From IMG/VR virus record IMGVR_UViG_3300042892_004016, positions 51,895 to 115,894 of that record: a stretch of 64,000 nucleotides of DNA; one strand, 5' to 3'. A program made the position numbers and the translations under genes. The notes under the pieces are model-generated. The model had not been told where the DNA came from, made no database searches, and worked only from the letters and a program-made list of their open reading frames with translations. Below, in pieces: positions 43,851-64,000 of the stretch. Each line of letters opens with the position of its first letter. The first letter of the stretch is position 1. Origin of the DNA: a virus.

Positions 43851-46800
43851 ATGGCATTAATAACTAAAGTACCCGGACTAATCGTCGATGAAACAAGCAA
43901 TTTTACATTCGCCAACGCCAATGTAACTGGAAACCTGACCTCAGGCAACGCCAATTTGGGCAATCTAGCGACAGCTAACTATGTCGCCGGAACCCTCACA
44001 ACAGCGTTACAGCCCAATATCACTCAAGTTGGCTCACTGGCCAATCTGACAGTTACTGGCAATATAACTGTGGGTGCTGTCAAAACCAACAGTTTACTGT
44101 ACGCAAACGGCGAGGCTTACGCAATTGGCGGCGGAATTACCATTGCAGGCACTAATAGTCAAGTACAATTTAACAACGCTAGCAGCTTTGGAGCAAGTGC
44201 AAATTTCACGTTCAACACCAGCACAAACACACTGAGTGTAGACAAGATTGCAGCAGACGGTGGATTATTATCAAATATCGCAGCAGCAAATGTATCAGGT
44301 ACCGTAGCCAACGCAACCTATGCAACTAGTGCAGGCACAGCAACAAGTGCCACCACTGCTACTACTGCAGGCACTGTAACAACAAACGCCCAGCCAAATA
44401 TCACCAGCGTGGGCACACTCAGTGGCTTGACAGTCAACGGCAATATCACATCAGTCAACGCCGATTTGGGCAATGCAGTTACCGCCAATTTCTTTATAGG
44501 CAGCGGCGCGAATCTAAGTAACCTACAGGCCAGCAACATAACTGGCACAGTAGCCAACGCCACATATGCAACTAGTGCAGGTACCGCAACATCAGCGGGT
44601 ACGGCTACTACGGCCACCTCAGCTACAACAGCAGGTACAGTAACAACTGCAGCACAGCCCAATATCACCAGCGTTGGTACATTAAGCTCATTGACGGTAA
44701 CTGGCAATGTAACTGCTGACTATTTTATTGGCTCAGGTAACAATCTAAGTAACATACAGGCCAGCAACATAACTGGTACAGTGGCAAATGCAACATATGC
44801 CACTAGTGCAGGTACCGCAACAAGTGCAGGCACTGCTACTACAGCAGCCACAGTAACAACCAATGCACAACCAAATATTACCAGTGTTGGCACGCTAAGC
44901 GGGCTAACCGTTAATGGCAATATCACTGCTACTAATGCTGATTTGGGCAATGCAGCCACTGCCAATTATTTCCTTGGTAGCGGTGCAAACTTAAGTAACA
45001 TACAAGCTGCAAATGTAACCGGCACAGTAGCCAATGCCACTTTCGCAACTACAGCAGGCACTGCAACAAGTGCTACAAGTGCTACTACAGCTGGCACTGT
45101 AACAACAAACGCACAACCTAACATCACCAGTACTGGTACACTGAGTGGCCTAACGGTCAATGGTAATATCACCAGTAACAATGTTATAGTTAACGCAAGC
45201 ACAGCAAGCACAAGTAAAACTACAGGTGCATTAACAGTTGCCGGCGGCGTTGGTATTAATAATGATTTAACCGTTGGCAATTCAATCACTGTTGACGGCG
45301 GCGCCTACGGTAATGTGGTTGTAACTCAATTTGGCAGTGTGTTTGCACACGGTAGTGGGCCAAATCCTCGTGCTATTTACCAGGCCAGAGCAGCCGACGG
45401 TATTGCAGGTTTGGGTATGCAGGCCTACTCAGGACTCAACGGGCAAATTTATTCTAACACAGGTTTTACTTTTACAACTGATGCAACTGTCAGAGATAAA
45501 GATTTTCCAACTGGAGGTACAACCAGAGCAACGATTGACTCAACTGGACTAACAGTAACCGGTATAGCAAATATAAGCGGTAATATTAGCGCATTAAATG
45601 CCAATTTAGGCAACGCAGTCACTGCCAATTTCTTTATCGGTGATGGAAGTTTGCTTACTGGCATGCCAGCAGCGTCTACTGCCGCAACAGTAACAGCCAG
45701 CGCACAGCCCAACATCACTAGCACAGGCACACTAGCTAACCTATCAGTGTCGGGCAATGCTGCATTCACTGGCGCGAACGTAAGTTTAGGCAGTATAAGC
45801 AATCTACACATCACCGGCGGCACTGCCAACTATGTATTAAAAACTGACGGAGTTGGTAATTTAAGTTGGACTGCAATGCCGCCATCTACGTCTATCGTAG
45901 TAGACACCTTTACTGCTAATGGATCAGCCTCAACGTTTTTATTAAGTACTGCCCCAGCCGACATCAACCATACGTTTGTTACTATTAACGGGGTAAACGC
46001 AACTAAAGATAGTTACAGTTTAGCCAATGCAAACGTGGTATTAAACGAAGCACCAAATAACGGAGATTACGTTGAAGTAACTACGTTTTCTACATTAACA
46101 GTTGACGGCTATGGAAACAATGCCGTCAAAAACTATCTTAATACCTTTGATGGAAACATCATCCCTTCAGCTAATATTACATATGACCTGGGATCAAACA
46201 CGAACCGTTGGAAAGATTTGTATTTGAGTAGTAGTACTATCTACTTGGGCAATACTGCGGTCAGCGCAGAAGATATCCTGCCCATTGATTTAACGATTGC
46301 ACCAGAAGTATTAGCTATACAAATAGCAGCGCCTGCAGCCGGCGATGATACAACGTGGCTATGGACTTGGGAAACCAGTACTTTACCATTTGCCAGAACT
46401 GCAATTGTAAACAGCCCGCAAACAAATGTTCCCTTGTACAAGCAAGGAACCTATCAAATCAATAACTTCGCCAATGAGCAAACTGGTGTTATGACTCAAC
46501 GCCATGTGGCATACCTCAAGTGGATAGATGGATCAGGATACGACAACTTAGTAAGCTGGGCAGTCAACGCCGGCAACGTGTCAATGTCAAATCCAAATAT
46601 TAATGGCAACGCAGCAACTACAGTACAACGAATCAATGTGAGTGTGCCCAGTACAGTTACTCCACCCACATTAGTAGCACCAAACGTGTCGTATGGTGTT
46701 AGTTTTGCAAATGTTGGCGCGTATACAATAAGTGATTCAGCCGATGGTGACAATAAGAACATAGGACCATTATACAAAGGCGGCACTTATACTTTTAATT

Positions 46801-62684: not shown

Positions 62685-64000
62685 TGGCGCGCGGCAGAGG
62701 CAACGGCGGAGTTATAGGTAACAAAACACAAACCAATACACGCACCGCCGGTGGCGTCAGATTATTGGGTGATAGCACTCTAACTCACAGTGAAGGAGCG
62801 CCGTTAGCATCACGCCGCAATCTGATGGAAGAAGTATCTCCTGATAATGGCAATTTTGATCCATATTATGACAAAGTTCCAGTACATTTTGGTGACGCTC
62901 TATATGATGATGACATCATGCGTGACCGAAGCCAGTATGGCTGGGACAAATACTACAGTCAGGATGCATATGCTAGAGTACCGCAGTTAGCCCAATTTGG
63001 GCCCAGGTATCAAGATTGGTGTACACACTTTCATGAAAGTAACTATTATACTGTTACCAGTTACTCACAATTAGTATTGGCCACCAGTAACTTTACCATT
63101 GAATTTTGGGTTCAATTGTGCCGCAATGATGCCACAGAGCATCATATCATGGGCAAGGGTGGCAATGCAGGCAGAACAGCAGGCACTGGTTGGTCGGTGT
63201 ATGTTTCTACTGACAGAAAGATTGGATTCTTTGATGCTGTTGGCAATTCATCTACACAATCAGCCACAGCATTAGTATTAGACACTTGGTATCACGTGGC
63301 AATTGTTCGTTCCGGTACCGGATCTAATTTACTCAAGATATACCGCGATGGTGTACTTGATGCCACTGGCACCAGTTCAGGCAACTTTGCAGACACTAGC
63401 AACTTTTACATTGGATGTGATAGAGTAGCAACAGGCTCCACCTGGTTTGGCGGCAATTTATCTGACTTAAAGATTTCAAATTCTGCACAATATGCTACTG
63501 CGTTTGCTAAACCCACCGCCCCATTGACCAGTACTGGCGCCGTGTTCTTTCATTCAATGCAGACTCCTCATCATGACGATATACCAACCAATACAGTGTT
63601 GGGCTACACTGTAACCCAATCAGATCGAAGTAGTCTTAGACTACTGGACGGTCCTCTTATAAACCACGCACTTAGACCATATCAGCATGGTTCTAACAGT
63701 GTCTATTCATGGGACACACAGGCTTATTTAAAATGCTACGATGCTAGTCCCACCAGTACTGCACTAAGATTGGGCACTGGCGCATTTACCATTGAGGCAT
63801 GGGTGCATACAACTAATGCTGACGGCAATCGGCAAACAGGAATATTAGGCAAGGGCACTGGAAACACAGGCGCGGGTGGAACTGGCTGGTCCCTTTATAC
63901 AAACACCAGTGGATATCTAGAATTTGCAGACACCGGATCCACTTTAACTGCATCCACAAATAGAATAGGCTGGTGTGGATGGTATCATGTTGCGGCAGTT
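62684..64000 (+). CDS. LamG/ConA-like tip protein, truncated by the window end
   Basis: Not in the ORF track (no stop in window). TAATG-coupled; MARGRGNGGVIG..DPYYDKV..FTIEFWV..WYHVAIVR..FTIEAWV. Confidence 0.75.
   Translation, partial: MARGRGNGGVIGNKTQTNTRTAGGVRLLGDSTLTHSEGAPLASRRNLMEEVSPDNGNFDPYYDKVPVHFGDALYDDDIMRDRSQYGWDKYYSQDAYARVPQLAQFGPRYQDWCTHFHESNYYTVTSYSQLVLATSNFTIEFWVQLCRNDATEHHIMGKGGNAGRTAGTGWSVYVSTDRKIGFFDAVGNSSTQSATALVLDTWYHVAIVRSGTGSNLLKIYRDGVLDATGTSSGNFADTSNFYIGCDRVATGSTWFGGNLSDLKISNSAQYATAFAKPTAPLTSTGAVFFHSMQTPHHDDIPTNTVLGYTVTQSDRSSLRLLDGPLINHALRPYQHGSNSVYSWDTQAYLKCYDASPTSTALRLGTGAFTIEAWVHTTNADGNRQTGILGKGTGNTGAGGTGWSLYTNTSGYLEFADTGSTLTASTNRIGWCGWYHVAAV

What the first reader, a model, noticed from the sequence alone, without database searches (positions are those of the whole stretch)
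43851..64000. Two orthogonal three-gene stalk-adaptor-tip cassettes, each present twice
Seen, type A: stalk ends MGLIFGG/MGLILGA (43851, 61861), then a 118-aa MxAPN protein (47488, 62328), then a tip starting MARNRLNYGIIG/MARGRGNGGVIG (47846, 62684). Type B: stalk ends SPFLFL/HPFFMMG (49099, 58283), then a 109-aa YxxLGQ protein (51001, 58896), then a tip starting MALKSL/MGVKLQ (51330, 59227). Adaptor and tip are always translationally coupled (TAATG or TAAAATG). Within each type one tip is polyglycine and the other is LamG, and stalk length varies from 75 to 1211 aa. The junction motifs are therefore conserved while the cargo is swapped. Inference: the small adaptors clamp a hydrophobic C-terminal peptide to a tip protein and make receptor-binding modules interchangeable.
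Basis: partly seen in the sequence, partly recalled or inferred. Interest (0 to 1): 0.75.

Follow-up and report, generated by a model that had tools for sequence, protein, structure and literature searches.

The report
Small jelly-roll joints in phage fibres
This giant lake phage has four tail-fibre gene sets, each a fibre with a short greasy end, a tiny conserved jelly-roll protein and a swappable host-binding tip; the same layout recurs in many aquatic phages and is probably an undescribed snap-together joint, though no binding has been shown.

Summary
There are two 118-aa paralogues (type A, 46% identical) and two 109-aa paralogues (type B, 50% identical). Each lies between a fibre gene with a short hydrophobic C-terminal tail and a tip gene whose start overlaps or abuts its stop.

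In about 130 unique related cassettes from IMG/VR, roughly 90% of upstream proteins carry the tail of their own adaptor type and none carries the other type's. About 1% of control ORFs match. Tips vary: glycine-rich, LamG, leucine-rich repeat, RCC1.

- A and B are not unrelated. Both fold as 8-stranded jelly rolls and hit the same phage proteins, so they are branches of one large unannotated superfamily (4,051 clusters).
- The tip is optional in some phages.
- The B-type tip motif is weak.

Natural fusions (adaptor+tip, stalk+adaptor) lack the junction peptides, which fits a docking role.

Best reading, at 0.6: a structural, peptide-addressed joint between fibre shaft and receptor-binding tip. 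Binding, stoichiometry and virion presence are untested. A retained assembly chaperone is the main rival.

Other agents of this scan reached the same reading on other phage DNA several times. I found no paper, Pfam or NCBIfam entry for the family.

The parts
43851..47486 (+). Cassette A1 stalk: 1211-aa repetitive fibre. The C-terminal docking tail TFTMGLIFGG is encoded up to 47483, and the stop lies 1 nt before the adaptor ATG.
   Evidence: ORF and translation; junction sequence. The A-type tail consensus ...(A/T)MG(I/L)IFGG / TTGKAIAMA(L/I)VFG is present in 48 of 51 related cassettes.
47488..47844 (+). Adaptor A1: 118-aa type-A small jelly-roll protein (MTAPN...SYEIIA).
   Evidence: 46% identical to 62328-62684. 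352 homologous clusters of 116-123 aa. AF2 model is an 8-9-stranded beta sandwich, pLDDT 76.8. No Pfam or NCBIfam match.
47846..49084 (+). Tip A1: 412 aa with head peptide MARNRLNYGIIG, then fn3 and a glycine-rich domain.
   Evidence: Pfam fn3 and Gly_rich_2. Start is 1 nt after the adaptor stop. The head motif M(A)R.R.NYG(I/V)(I/V)G recurs in related loci.
49099..50988 (+). Cassette B1 stalk: 629-aa fibre ending ...PESLSPFLFL, a truncated variant of the B tail ...SPFLLMGA.
   Evidence: The shaft shares modules and the N-terminal motif with the A1 stalk (36% over 231 aa).
51001..51330 (+). Adaptor B1: 109-aa type-B small jelly-roll protein (MTITYKVLGQ...FGSEIS).
   Evidence: 50% identical to 58896-59225. 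Hits the N-terminal part of phrog_1276 and phrog_693. 273 homologous clusters of 106-110 aa.
51330..52202 (+). Tip B1: 290-aa glycine-rich protein starting MALKSLTAQNLSSQRF. Its start overlaps the adaptor stop (TAATG).
   Evidence: Pfam Gly_rich_2, E 1.4e-18. Junction sequence. Its C-terminal 41 aa are 73% identical to tip A1.
58283..58882 (+). Cassette B2 stalk: 199 aa with two DUF4183 / T7-tail-like beta domains, ending ...AVLHPFFMMG.
58896..59225 (+). Adaptor B2: 109-aa type-B small jelly-roll protein (MAFSYQILGQ...FGTQVS).
   Evidence: AF2 model is an 8-stranded jelly roll, pLDDT 87.5, pTM 0.77. BFVD matches reach TM up to 0.91. PDB matches are only generic: Ena1B Z 9.7, KHP40 cement protein Z 9.6, TNF family Z about 8.
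59227..61839 (+). Tip B2: 870 aa with head MGVKLQSTQKVS, an IPT-like segment and three LamG domains.
   Evidence: Pfam Laminin_G_3 x3, E 4e-42. Start is 1 nt after the adaptor stop.
61861..62088 (+). Cassette A2 mini-stalk: 75 aa, made of the common stalk N-terminal motif, one GSVSNLHITGG..LTTDG.GNLS module and the tail YAMGLILGA.
   Evidence: Identical in L105. Relatives L119/L120 have a 101-aa stalk ending ...NLFFGG 2 nt before the adaptor.
62089..62327 (.). 239-nt spacer between the mini-stalk and adaptor A2. It is the only stalk-adaptor junction in the window that is not tight.
   Evidence: Sequence. No Rfam match. Fold z-score -1.07.
62328..62684 (+). Adaptor A2: 118-aa type-A small jelly-roll protein (MSAPN...SYEEVS).
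62684..64000 (+). Tip A2: LamG-repeat protein with head MARGRGNGGVIG, cut by the contig end. Full length is 1268 aa in L105.
   Evidence: Pfam Laminin_G_3 x2. TAATG overlap. L105 is 99.85% identical over 2021 nt.

Best explanation
The 109-aa and 118-aa proteins are two branches of one widespread, unannotated family of small jelly-roll virion proteins. I read them as non-covalent joints in tail fibres.

Proposed mechanism:
- The fibre shaft ends in a 7-13-residue hydrophobic tail. Type A is ...AMG(I/L)IFGG or ...GKAIAMA(L/I)VFG. Type B is ...PF(L/M)LMGA or ...(L/M)LGGM.
- That tail docks on the adaptor of the matching type.
- The receptor-binding tip docks on the same adaptor through its first 12-25 residues.
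- The three genes are translated in series (1-13-nt gaps or TAATG overlaps), so the parts are made in matched amounts.
- Because the address lies in short terminal peptides, shafts and tips of any kind (glycine-rich, LamG, leucine-rich repeat, RCC1) can be exchanged by recombination while still fitting.
- With two address classes, one phage can mount four different tips without mix-ups.

Shown here: gene order, coupling, type-specific tails, swapped cargo, a common fold, and fused forms.

Inferred: physical binding, oligomeric state (a trimer is plausible from the fold but not shown), docking by added beta-strands, and presence in this phage's virion.
For: 1. Paralogy and tight junctions in the window.

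2. Neighbour survey of 160 IMG/VR loci.
- 56 of 63 unique B-upstream proteins carry the B tail pattern and none the A pattern.
- 46 of 49 unique A-upstream proteins carry the A pattern and none the B pattern.
- Among 1110 control ORFs, 13 match B and 9 match A, and most of those are truncated copies of real stalks.
- A stop-to-stop re-count that includes mini-stalks gives 61 of 74 (about 66 of 74 with PF-core variants) for B and 48 of 51 for A.

3. Downstream genes start within -4 to +4 nt in 64 of 73 B cassettes.

4. Cargo is diverse behind the same adaptor type.
- B: Gly_rich_2 in 24 of 57, DUF285/LRR_5 in 7-10, LamG in 3, RCC1 in 1.
- A: Gly_rich_2 in 17 of 25, LamG in 5 of 25.
- Stalks range from about 43 to over 1900 aa.

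5. Within the window, cargo crosses types. The A1 and B1 tips are both Gly-rich (73% identical at the C-terminus), the A2 and B2 tips are both LamG, and the A1 and B1 shafts share modules.

6. Rosetta-stone fusions.
- Of the 149 best representatives, 17 have the jelly roll as the N-terminal domain of Gly-rich, IPT or LamG proteins, and about 8 have it as the C-terminal domain of stalk-like proteins.
- P0241 is an A adaptor fused to LamG.
- Where inspected, the fusions lack the tail and head peptides.

7. The same triads occur in cultured phages of several kinds:
- S-SKS1: ...IMMGMIF, then an A adaptor, then two tips starting MLGFNGGTIG and MPLYNGGRIG.
- HTVC033P: gp66 ...GKAIAMAIVFG, then gp65, then gp64 MANGGIIG...
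- DSL-LC04.
- phiPsal1: gp020 ...ALMLMGG, then gp021.
- P-SSM2: gp301, then gp302.

8. Fold relatives in BFVD are named virion or virion structural proteins (S-SCSM1, MaMV-DC, S-TIM5). phiPsal1 gp021 is annotated as a virion structural protein by likeness to HTVC010P.

9. A third subfamily (100 aa) has its own tail (...IM.IMGAY) and head (MG(I/L)SVFPA), so the pairing rule extends beyond two classes.
Against: - No binding, complex model or virion proteomics was obtained for these proteins.
- 'Virion protein' names are depositor annotations of fold-level relatives. I could not tie them to mass-spectrometry tables.
- The survey loci were picked by adaptor similarity and many are related, so the counts are not independent events. 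Adjacent genes are co-inherited.
- My tail patterns were written after seeing the data.
- The tip is missing in about 30 marine contigs and in phiPsal1.
- Some ...LGGM tails are followed by other genes.
- About 8 of 74 B adaptors have no recognisable tail upstream.
- Nearly identical B adaptors follow both ...FLLMGA and ...LMLGGM tails, so there is no fine code within a type.
- PDB fold matches are generic (Z 7-9.7) and include trimers, pentamers and helical polymers, so the oligomeric state is open.
Confidence: 0.6

Rival explanations
1. The small proteins are tail-fibre assembly chaperones, like lambda/Mu Tfa, T4 gp38/gp57A or Pam3 gp25. They would bind the end of the upstream fibre, or the nascent tip, to help it fold and trimerise, and might be released before maturation.
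For: - They are small genes immediately downstream of fibre genes, which is the classic chaperone position.
- They are conserved while their neighbours vary.
- Pam3 gp25 is a chaperone with a beta-sandwich domain that embraces a glycine-rich fibre tip at 3:3 and is thought to leave before maturation (PMC9608196).
- Cassettes without a tip (marine clade, phiPsal1) fit a partner of the stalk alone.
Against: - The jelly roll occurs covalently as the N-terminal domain of tip proteins, as the C-terminal domain of stalk-like proteins and as tandem doubles. That is unusual for a released chaperone.
- Mini-stalks of 43-80 aa have almost nothing to fold.
- The partner element is a short tail, not a globular distal domain.
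- Relatives are annotated as virion proteins.
- There is no sequence match to Caudo_TAP, GP38 or any other Pfam family.
- Pam3 gp25 was not among the top structural matches.
Confidence: 0.17
2. The small protein is simply the distal knob or cap of the upstream fibre, a split-off C-terminal head domain. The downstream protein is an independent fibre or adhesin that attaches elsewhere, and adjacency reflects co-regulation only.
For: - The jelly-roll fold resembles terminal fibre and TNF/C1q-type heads, including the C-terminal domain of the Bdellovibrio Bd2133 fibre.
- Stalk-adaptor fusions end with the jelly roll (P0350, P0352).
- Cassettes without a tip exist.
- One record calls a homologue a 'putative lectin'.
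Against: - The sequence is far too conserved for a receptor-binding head: 47% identity between this giant T4-like phage and an actinobacterial siphophage.
- Start/stop overlap with the next gene occurs in 50 of 68 B cassettes.
- The A-type head peptide is conserved on tips with unrelated bodies.
- 17 of 149 representatives are adaptor-tip fusions, with the adaptor N-terminal.
Confidence: 0.12
3. The conserved tail, adaptor and head segment is mainly a recombination linker: a conserved DNA stretch that lets fibre modules be shuffled. There would be no specific peptide-protein docking.
For: Module boundaries coincide with the conserved stretch, and cargo on both sides is shuffled.
Against: - Conservation is at the protein level across adaptors only 30-50% identical, with synonymous differences even between the window's own two A tails (TTA/TTG, GGG/GGT).
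- Tails are type-specific with no crossing.
- Fused forms drop the peptides.
- A pure DNA linker would not need a folded 110-aa protein that is length-invariant in hundreds of clusters.
Confidence: 0.04

Closest known systems
T-even long tail fibre joints: T4 gp34-gp35-gp36-gp37, and the separate gp38 adhesin on the gp37 tip in T2/S16-type phages (my knowledge of T4; S16 gp38 as described in PMC9608196)
   Same: - The fibre is built from several gene products joined non-covalently.
- Small connector proteins are encoded between the shaft genes.
- A separate distal adhesin with a polyglycine domain attaches to the shaft end through a hydrophobic contact.
- The genes are adjacent and in assembly order.
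   Different: - There is no sequence or Pfam match to gp35, gp36 or gp38.
- Here an extra 110-aa jelly-roll protein sits between shaft and adhesin.
- Addressing appears to lie in short terminal peptides of at least two or three classes.
- The same joint serves many cargo folds and many phage lineages.
Branched receptor-binding protein systems of Klebsiella podophages (KP32, K11, KP34): branching/anchor domain of RBP1 plus a conserved N-terminal docking peptide of RBP2 (PMC6872550; PMC13352976)
   Same: A short conserved N-terminal peptide on an exchangeable receptor-binding protein docks on a conserved anchor module, which gives plug-and-play host-range modules.
   Different: - The anchor there is a T4gp10-like domain inside RBP1.
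- Here it is a free-standing (sometimes fused) small jelly roll with no match to that domain.
- Here a second docking element, the hydrophobic C-terminal tail of the shaft, is also conserved.
Cyanophage Pam3 tail fibre gp24 (helical shaft, TNF-like domain, glycine-rich receptor-binding domain) with chaperone gp25 (PMC9608196)
   Same: - A beta-sandwich/TNF-like module precedes a glycine-rich adhesin domain at the fibre end.
- The window's Gly_rich_2 tips, and the fused forms P0310 and P0284, have that order.
   Different: - In Pam3 all parts are one polypeptide and the glycine-rich loops grow out of the TNF-like domain.
- There is no sequence match between the window's tips or adaptors and any PDB chain.
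- Pam3 chains were not among the top fold matches.
Chain-like fibres of podophages GP4 and A1002: small fibre proteins docked on a peptide 'rope' by beta-sheet augmentation (PMC13730344)
   Same: This is a precedent for small (about 150-aa) beta-rich virion proteins that attach to a linear segment of another tail protein by adding strands to a sheet.
   Different: Those are dimers strung along one long docking domain, with different proteins and a different architecture. No homology was tested or claimed.

Membership tests
Uncharacterised small jelly-roll virion-protein superfamily (standalone 100-125 aa; N-terminal domain of phrog_1276 / phrog_693 'tail fiber protein') | Sequence match to family profiles. 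| tested here: met
   - B adaptors hit phrog_1276 at E 7.9e-12 and 7.4e-8, and phrog_693 at E 1.2e-7 and 2e-5, over the N-terminal 105-110 profile positions.
- A profile of the B family finds 4,051 clusters at E<=1e-3.
- A adaptors have no significant PHROG hit (the only hit is 62328-62684 to phrog_13709, E 0.068), but 352 homologous clusters.
Uncharacterised small jelly-roll virion-protein superfamily | A and B share one fold and common relatives. | tested here: met
   - Both AF2 models are 8-9-stranded sandwiches.
- Both hit the same BFVD entries (for example A0A6J5LRC5, A0A6J5N5Q8, A0A6M2ZHP5, A0A075BU08, H6WG40) at TM 0.7-0.9.
- The sequence signal is weak: blastp E 0.016, hhalign E 6e-4 with probability 29%.
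T4 long-tail-fibre connectors gp35/gp36 | Sequence homology to gp35 or gp36 families. | tested here: not met
   No Pfam, NCBIfam or PDB sequence match for any of the four adaptors or their alignments.
T4 long-tail-fibre connectors gp35/gp36 | Physically joins two fibre segments in the virion. | not testable with these tools
   Only gene order, coupling and fusions are available.
Tail fibre assembly chaperones / adhesins (Caudo_TAP, T-even gp38, Pam3 gp25) | Sequence or clear fold match to a known chaperone family. | tested here: inconclusive
   No Pfam match. No such chain appears among the listed Foldseek or VIA matches, but a fold that is not listed is not excluded.
Klebsiella-type anchor/branching RBP systems | T4gp10-like branching domain as the anchor. 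| tested here: not met
   No Pfam match of the adaptors to any domain. The predicted fold is a plain jelly roll.
Klebsiella-type anchor/branching RBP systems | Conserved N-terminal docking peptide on exchangeable RBPs. | tested here: met
   This is met by analogy only. A-type tips with Gly-rich or LamG bodies share M(A)R.R.N(Y/G)G(I/V)(I/V)G. B-type heads are conserved only within subclades.
TNF/C1q-like trimeric jelly-roll heads | Fold similarity standing clearly above background, and a trimeric state. | tested here: inconclusive
   APRIL/BAFF/C1q score Z 7.2-8.3, no better than Ena1B (9.7), KHP40 cement protein (9.6), GOLD domains or nucleoplasmin. The oligomeric state was not modelled.
Pfam Gly_rich_2 (PF21722) and Laminin_G_3 (PF13385), for the tips | Score above the Pfam gathering threshold. 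| tested here: met
   - Gly_rich_2: 65.4 and 68.2 bits against a cut-off of 24.3.
- Laminin_G_3: 94.9 and 144.3 bits against a cut-off of 27.6.

The most novel reading that the evidence does not exclude
Thousands of aquatic phages, across myo-, sipho- and podovirus-like genomes, share a peptide-addressed docking code with at least three mutually exclusive classes. Each class has one small jelly-roll adaptor subfamily, one hydrophobic C-terminal tail on the shaft and one N-terminal head peptide on the tip. The adaptor would bind both peptides directly. One virion could then mount several different receptor-binding tips without cross-assembly, and evolution could swap tips between unrelated phages as ready-made cartridges.
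Probability: 0.4. Interest if true: 0.75.

Novelty: new variant of a known kind. Interest (0 to 1): 0.62.

Why it matters
Host range in tailed phages is set by the distal fibre parts. How uncultured aquatic phages, including abundant pelagiphage and cyanophage types, assemble and exchange those parts is largely unknown.

If these small proteins are peptide-addressed joints, three things follow:
- A very common 'hypothetical protein' gets a role: 4,051 clusters at 50% identity, with no Pfam or NCBIfam entry.
- Fibre architecture becomes readable from the sequence of metagenomic phages. One can see which shaft carries which tip, and how many tips a virion has.
- A natural set of non-crossing connectors becomes available for studying host recognition in laboratory phage-host pairs.

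The general principle, modular receptor-binding proteins docked through conserved peptides or small connectors, is already known from T-even and Klebsiella phages. This would be a new implementation, not a new concept.

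Tried and rejected
- Megablast of 47000-52300 against GenBank phages found no match.
- Pfam, NCBIfam and PDB sequence searches of the adaptors and their alignments gave only sub-threshold noise such as DUF6060, PspAB and a dehydrogenase.
- PDB sequence search of the Gly-rich tips gave nothing for 51330 and only fn3 hits for 47846. 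A direct link to Pam3 gp24 therefore could not be shown.
- The ESM Atlas returned only unnamed viral clusters.
- Foldseek and VIA-align against the PDB found generic jelly rolls only, with no solved close relative.
- A search for longer type-A relatives found a single fusion.
- A tree of 75 B adaptors was poorly resolved: 4 starred branches, with the careful search unfinished. I used it only descriptively. Tail variants ...LMGA and ...LGGM sit on near-identical adaptors, so I dropped the idea of a fine code within type B.
- The T4 late-promoter motif TATAAATA occurs once (50984, just before adaptor B1) against 3.9 expected by chance, so it is not evidence. Sigma-70 and terminator scans were near shuffle levels.
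- The 239-nt spacer before adaptor A2 has no Rfam match and an unremarkable fold.
- I could not link the S-SCSM1 'virion protein' name to its mass-spectrometry list in the paper's main text. HTVC010P itself was not recovered by tblastn.
- No complex prediction (stalk tail + adaptor + tip head) was run.

Full report
**Context**

The window is the last 64 kb of a single 115.9-kb contig. The contig carries a T4-type portal and major head protein. The major capsid protein is about 65% identical to those of jumbo phages such as PA5oct and Vibrio phage 2.275.O. Earlier notes of this scan describe the contig as a fragment of an uncultured giant T4-like lake phage. From about 14.6 kb to the end, almost every gene on the + strand is a fibre-like protein.

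**Observation**

| Cassette | Stalk | Adaptor | Tip |
|---|---|---|---|
| A1 | 43851-47486, 1211 aa, ...TFTMGLIFGG | 47488-47844, 118 aa | 47846-49084, MARNRLNYGIIG |
| A2 | 61861-62088, 75 aa, ...YAMGLILGA | 62328-62684, 118 aa | 62684->64000, MARGRGNGGVIG |
| B1 | 49099-50988, 629 aa, ...SPFLFL | 51001-51330, 109 aa | 51330-52202 |
| B2 | 58283-58882, 199 aa, ...HPFFMMG | 58896-59225, 109 aa | 59227-61839 |

- The two A adaptors are 46% identical (E 2e-28). The two B adaptors are 50% identical (E 2e-42).
- The adaptor/tip junctions read TAAAATG, TAATG, TAAAATG and TAATG.
- The stalk/adaptor gaps are 1, 12 and 13 nt, plus one of 239 nt for A2.
- Pfam confirms that each type has one glycine-rich tip (Gly_rich_2; the A1 tip also has fn3) and one LamG tip (Laminin_G_3 x2-3).
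- The A2 tip is cut by the contig end. A 99.85%-identical IMG/VR contig (L105) shows it is 1268 aa, and the fibre locus ends about 1 kb later.
- Only these four copies exist on the contig.

**What the small proteins are**

- Neither type matches Pfam, NCBIfam or any PDB sequence.
- The B type matches the N-terminal ~110 positions of PHROG families 1276 (unknown function) and 693 ('tail fiber protein').
- Both types are abundant and almost invariant in length. B has 273 clusters at 90% identity, of 106-110 aa. A has 352 clusters of 116-123 aa.
- A profile of the B family finds 4,051 clusters at 50% identity with E<=1e-3, of which 1,951 have E<=1e-10.
- AlphaFold2 gives an eight-stranded jelly roll for B (pLDDT 87.5). 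For A it gives a similar sandwich with a disordered but conserved N-terminal arm (pLDDT 76.8).
- Against the PDB only generic jelly rolls appear: Ena1B at Z 9.7, the trimeric cement protein of phage KHP40 at Z 9.6, YomS, GOLD and nucleoplasmin cores, the TNF/APRIL/BAFF/C1q family at Z 7-8, and the C-terminal domain of the Bdellovibrio Bd2133 fibre. No close solved relative exists, and the oligomeric state cannot be read off.
- Against predicted viral structures (BFVD), the A and B models hit the same set of 100-125-aa phage proteins at TM 0.7-0.9. Some are named virion or virion structural protein (S-SCSM1, MaMV-DC, S-TIM5). Both models also hit a 368-aa S-SKS1 protein, and the B model alone hits the tail-fibre-like proteins of S-CAM1 and P-SSM2 at their N-terminal domains.
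- The direct sequence signal between A and B is weak but present: blastp E 0.016, hhalign E 6e-4, and reciprocal weak HMM hits within the contig.

The two 'orthogonal' types are therefore branches of one superfamily, not unrelated inventions.

**The refutation test: neighbours elsewhere**

I fetched 80 IMG/VR loci for each type. I then called ORFs and located adaptors with HMMs built from alignments A1 and A2.

Tail specificity after de-duplication:

| Set | Own-type tail | Other-type tail |
|---|---|---|
| Unique proteins ending within 40 nt upstream of a B adaptor | 56 of 63 | 0 |
| Unique proteins ending within 40 nt upstream of an A adaptor | 46 of 49 | 0 |
| Control ORFs of >=100 aa from the same loci (1110) | B pattern 13, A pattern 9 | |

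- The B pattern is [FL][LM][L..][MG]G[AMG], as in ...SPFLLMGA and ...VFMLGGM. The A pattern is as in ...AMGIIFGG and ...TTGKAIAMALVFG.
- Most of the control matches are truncated copies of genuine stalks.
- Several apparent exceptions turned out to be mini-stalks of 43-55 aa (MSKARDLA...ALMTMGA) that my length filter had hidden.
- A stop-to-stop re-count gives 61 of 74 for B, or about 66 of 74 if PF-core variants such as the window's own PFLFL and PFFMMG are accepted. It gives 48 of 51 for A.

Coupling and cargo:
- Downstream genes start within -4 to +4 nt of the adaptor stop in 64 of 73 B cassettes and 28 of 59 A cassettes.
- The other A cassettes form a marine clade in which the next gene is a small MAHFAELN... 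protein 11-19 nt away and no tip follows.
- Stalks range from about 43 to over 1900 aa.
- B-type tips are Gly_rich_2 (24 of 57), DUF285/LRR_5 (7-10), LamG (3), RCC1 (1) or unassigned. A-type tips are Gly_rich_2 (17 of 25) or LamG (5 of 25).
- A-type tips keep a basic N-terminal peptide ending N(Y/G)G(I/V)(I/V)G whatever their body. B-type heads share little beyond M-A-[IV], apart from subclade patterns such as ..S.QKLS.. in the giant-phage clade.
- A third adaptor subfamily of 100 aa has its own tail (...IM.IMGAY...LLLMGAL) and its own head (MG(I/L)SVFPA). A diverged A-like form in L120 pairs ...LKYYILNI with MALTRPGGYIR.
- Contigs that carry both types keep the pairings separate, for example L024/L096, L100 and L101.

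**Cultured phages**

The same order is present in cultured phages of several kinds:
- Synechococcus myophage S-SKS1: 'baseplate wedge subunit' ...ISPIMMGMIF, then a 120-aa A adaptor, then two tips starting MLGFNGGTIG and MPLYNGGRIG.
- Pelagibacter phage HTVC033P: tail fibre gp66 ...VGKAIAMAIVFG, then gp65, then gp64 MANGGIIG..., then an MAHFAE protein.
- Lake phage DSL-LC04: ...GKSIAMAMIFGF, then a 125-aa protein called 'putative lectin', then a Gly-rich tip.
- Prochlorococcus phage P-SSM2: tail fibre gp301, then gp302.
- The 31-kb actinobacterial siphophage phiPsal1: gp020 ...ALMLMGG, then gp021, which is 47% identical to the window's B2 adaptor and annotated as a virion structural protein by likeness to HTVC010P.

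Such conservation across phages of unrelated hosts argues against the small protein being a receptor-binding head itself.

**Fusions**

Among the 149 best representatives of the B profile:

| Form | Count |
|---|---|
| Standalone | 97 |
| Tandem double jelly rolls | 25 |
| Jelly roll as N-terminal domain of a longer protein | 17 |
| Jelly roll at the C-terminus of a stalk-like protein | about 8 |

- In the N-terminal fusions the remainder of the protein is Gly-rich, IPT or LamG, the same cargo as in the window. P0310 even ends with the window tips' ...TGSPTITVAGGYRVY.. motif.
- One type-A fusion to LamG was found (P0241).
- In the fusions I inspected, the peptides that flank the split genes are absent. 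P0310 and the IPT fusions go from ...FGSEIT straight into the tip body. P0241 has no ..NYGIIG.. segment. P0350 and P0352 have no hydrophobic tail before ..YKILGQ.
- Peptides that are needed only when the partners are separate chains are what one expects of docking elements.
- The fusions also give the order shaft, jelly roll, tip.

**Cargo crosses the types within the window**

- The A1 and B1 tips are both Gly-rich, with 73% identical C-terminal 41 aa.
- The A2 and B2 tips are both LamG, 30% identical over 279 aa.
- The A1 and B1 shafts share modules and the same N-terminal motif.

Only the junction peptides and the adaptor differ by type.

**Mechanism, as inferred**

A fibre shaft ends in a short hydrophobic strand that binds its matching jelly-roll adaptor, and the tip binds the same adaptor through its head peptide. 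Serial translational coupling would supply the parts in equal amounts. Two or more address classes would prevent mis-pairing in a phage that builds many fibres at once.

The glycine-rich tips are probably adhesins of the kind solved in Pam3 gp24 and S16 gp38. This rests only on the Pfam family and on the description in PMC9608196. No sequence link to those structures was found.

What is shown: anatomy, pairing statistics, a common fold and fusions. What is not shown: binding, stoichiometry, the mode of docking and virion presence. I put this reading at 0.6.

**Rivals**

- Retained or released assembly chaperone (0.17). This fits the gene position and the cassettes without a tip. It fits poorly with the fusions, the mini-stalks and the virion annotations.
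- Terminal knob of the shaft with an independently attached tip (0.12). This fits the fold and the stalk-adaptor fusions. It does not fit the conservation, the coupling or the adaptor-tip fusions.
- Pure recombination linker (0.04). This is contradicted by protein-level conservation with synonymous change and by the strict type specificity.

**Caveats**

- The loci were chosen by adaptor similarity and many are related, and neighbouring genes are co-inherited. The counts show a rule, not a number of independent events.
- The tail patterns were defined after looking at the data.
- About 10% of cassettes are exceptions.
- Some ...LGGM tails precede other genes.
- Near-identical B adaptors follow both ...LMGA and ...LGGM tails, so specificity is at the level of types only.

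**Comparison with known systems and novelty**

The principle is known: fibres assembled from several proteins through small connectors or conserved docking peptides. Examples are T4 gp34-gp35-gp36-gp37 and T2/S16 gp38 (my knowledge), the Klebsiella podophage branching systems (PMC6872550, PMC13352976), and the beta-augmented small fibre proteins of GP4 and A1002.

The adaptors fail the sequence tests for all of these families. They represent an unannotated family of their own. I found no paper describing it in five full-text searches.

Other agents of this scan have reported the same kind of cassette on other phage DNA and reached similar readings. Those notes are not independent evidence. From them I took the Pam3 paper as a lead, and I checked the fused-versus-split argument myself.

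**Verdict**

The feature is real. I class it as a new variant of a known kind, with interest 0.62.

Noticed in passing
window 32605-32967 (+): A 120-aa protein (MAHFAQIDD...) matches phrog_7759 at E 1e-32. Its relatives (MAHFAELN..., 120-165 aa) lie directly after the A-type adaptor in about 30 marine contigs, and after the tip in Pelagibacter phage HTVC033P (gp63) and in L102 and L115. It looks like a regular fourth member of fibre cassettes, with unknown function.
   Followed up: partly
window 33039, 43851, 49099, 55786, 61861 (N-termini): Five stalks, including the 75-aa mini-stalk, begin with the same motif: M(A)L(T)+.P..LD.T.NFTFANANVTGN. This is probably one common proximal attachment peptide, so several different fibres may compete for or share one kind of socket.
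   Followed up: no
window 37325-38845, 38870-40756, 40781-43753 (+): Three consecutive proteins share their first ~45 residues (MSDYSTLKNAAIIETIS...NRYGNIFLQGN). They then carry IPT/He_PIG domains and either Gly-rich or LamG ends, with no small adaptor gene. This looks like another attachment class in the same locus.
   Followed up: no
window 29689-32589 (+): A 966-aa fibre has shaft, IPT domain and glycine-rich head in one polypeptide, ending ...TGSPTVTTNAGYNVYKFTTSGTITF like the split tips. It is the covalent counterpart of the split cassettes.
   Followed up: no
window 55786-58092 and 58283-58882 (+): The 768-aa fibre has no hydrophobic tail and ends in a YTGDG...VRELPR beta domain. The next gene, the B2 stalk, contains two similar FTGDG domains (DUF4183 / T7-tail N-terminal hits). 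This may be a second, different docking system in the same locus.
   Followed up: no
loci L010, L014, L019, L057, L071 (upstream of the B adaptor): Mini-stalks of 43-80 aa (M(S/T)KARDLA...DSTPTALMTMGA) lie between a long fibre ending ...IM.IMGAY or ...LLLMGAI and a B adaptor. This suggests joints can be chained.
   Followed up: partly
proteins P0242-P0299: 25 of the 149 best representatives are tandem doubles of the jelly-roll domain (about 212-242 aa). One, P0287, has two jelly rolls followed by a collagen-like repeat.
   Followed up: partly
window 62089-62327: A 239-nt non-coding spacer interrupts the otherwise tight stalk-adaptor junction of cassette A2. It contains a GACACAGCC-TGG-CTGTGTC hairpin, has no Rfam match, and its fold z-score is -1.07. 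It is identical in L105.
   Followed up: yes
window 50984-50991: The only exact T4 late-promoter-like TATAAATA in the window spans the stop codon of the B1 stalk, 10 nt before adaptor B1. One match against 3.9 expected by chance, so it is not evidence.
   Followed up: yes
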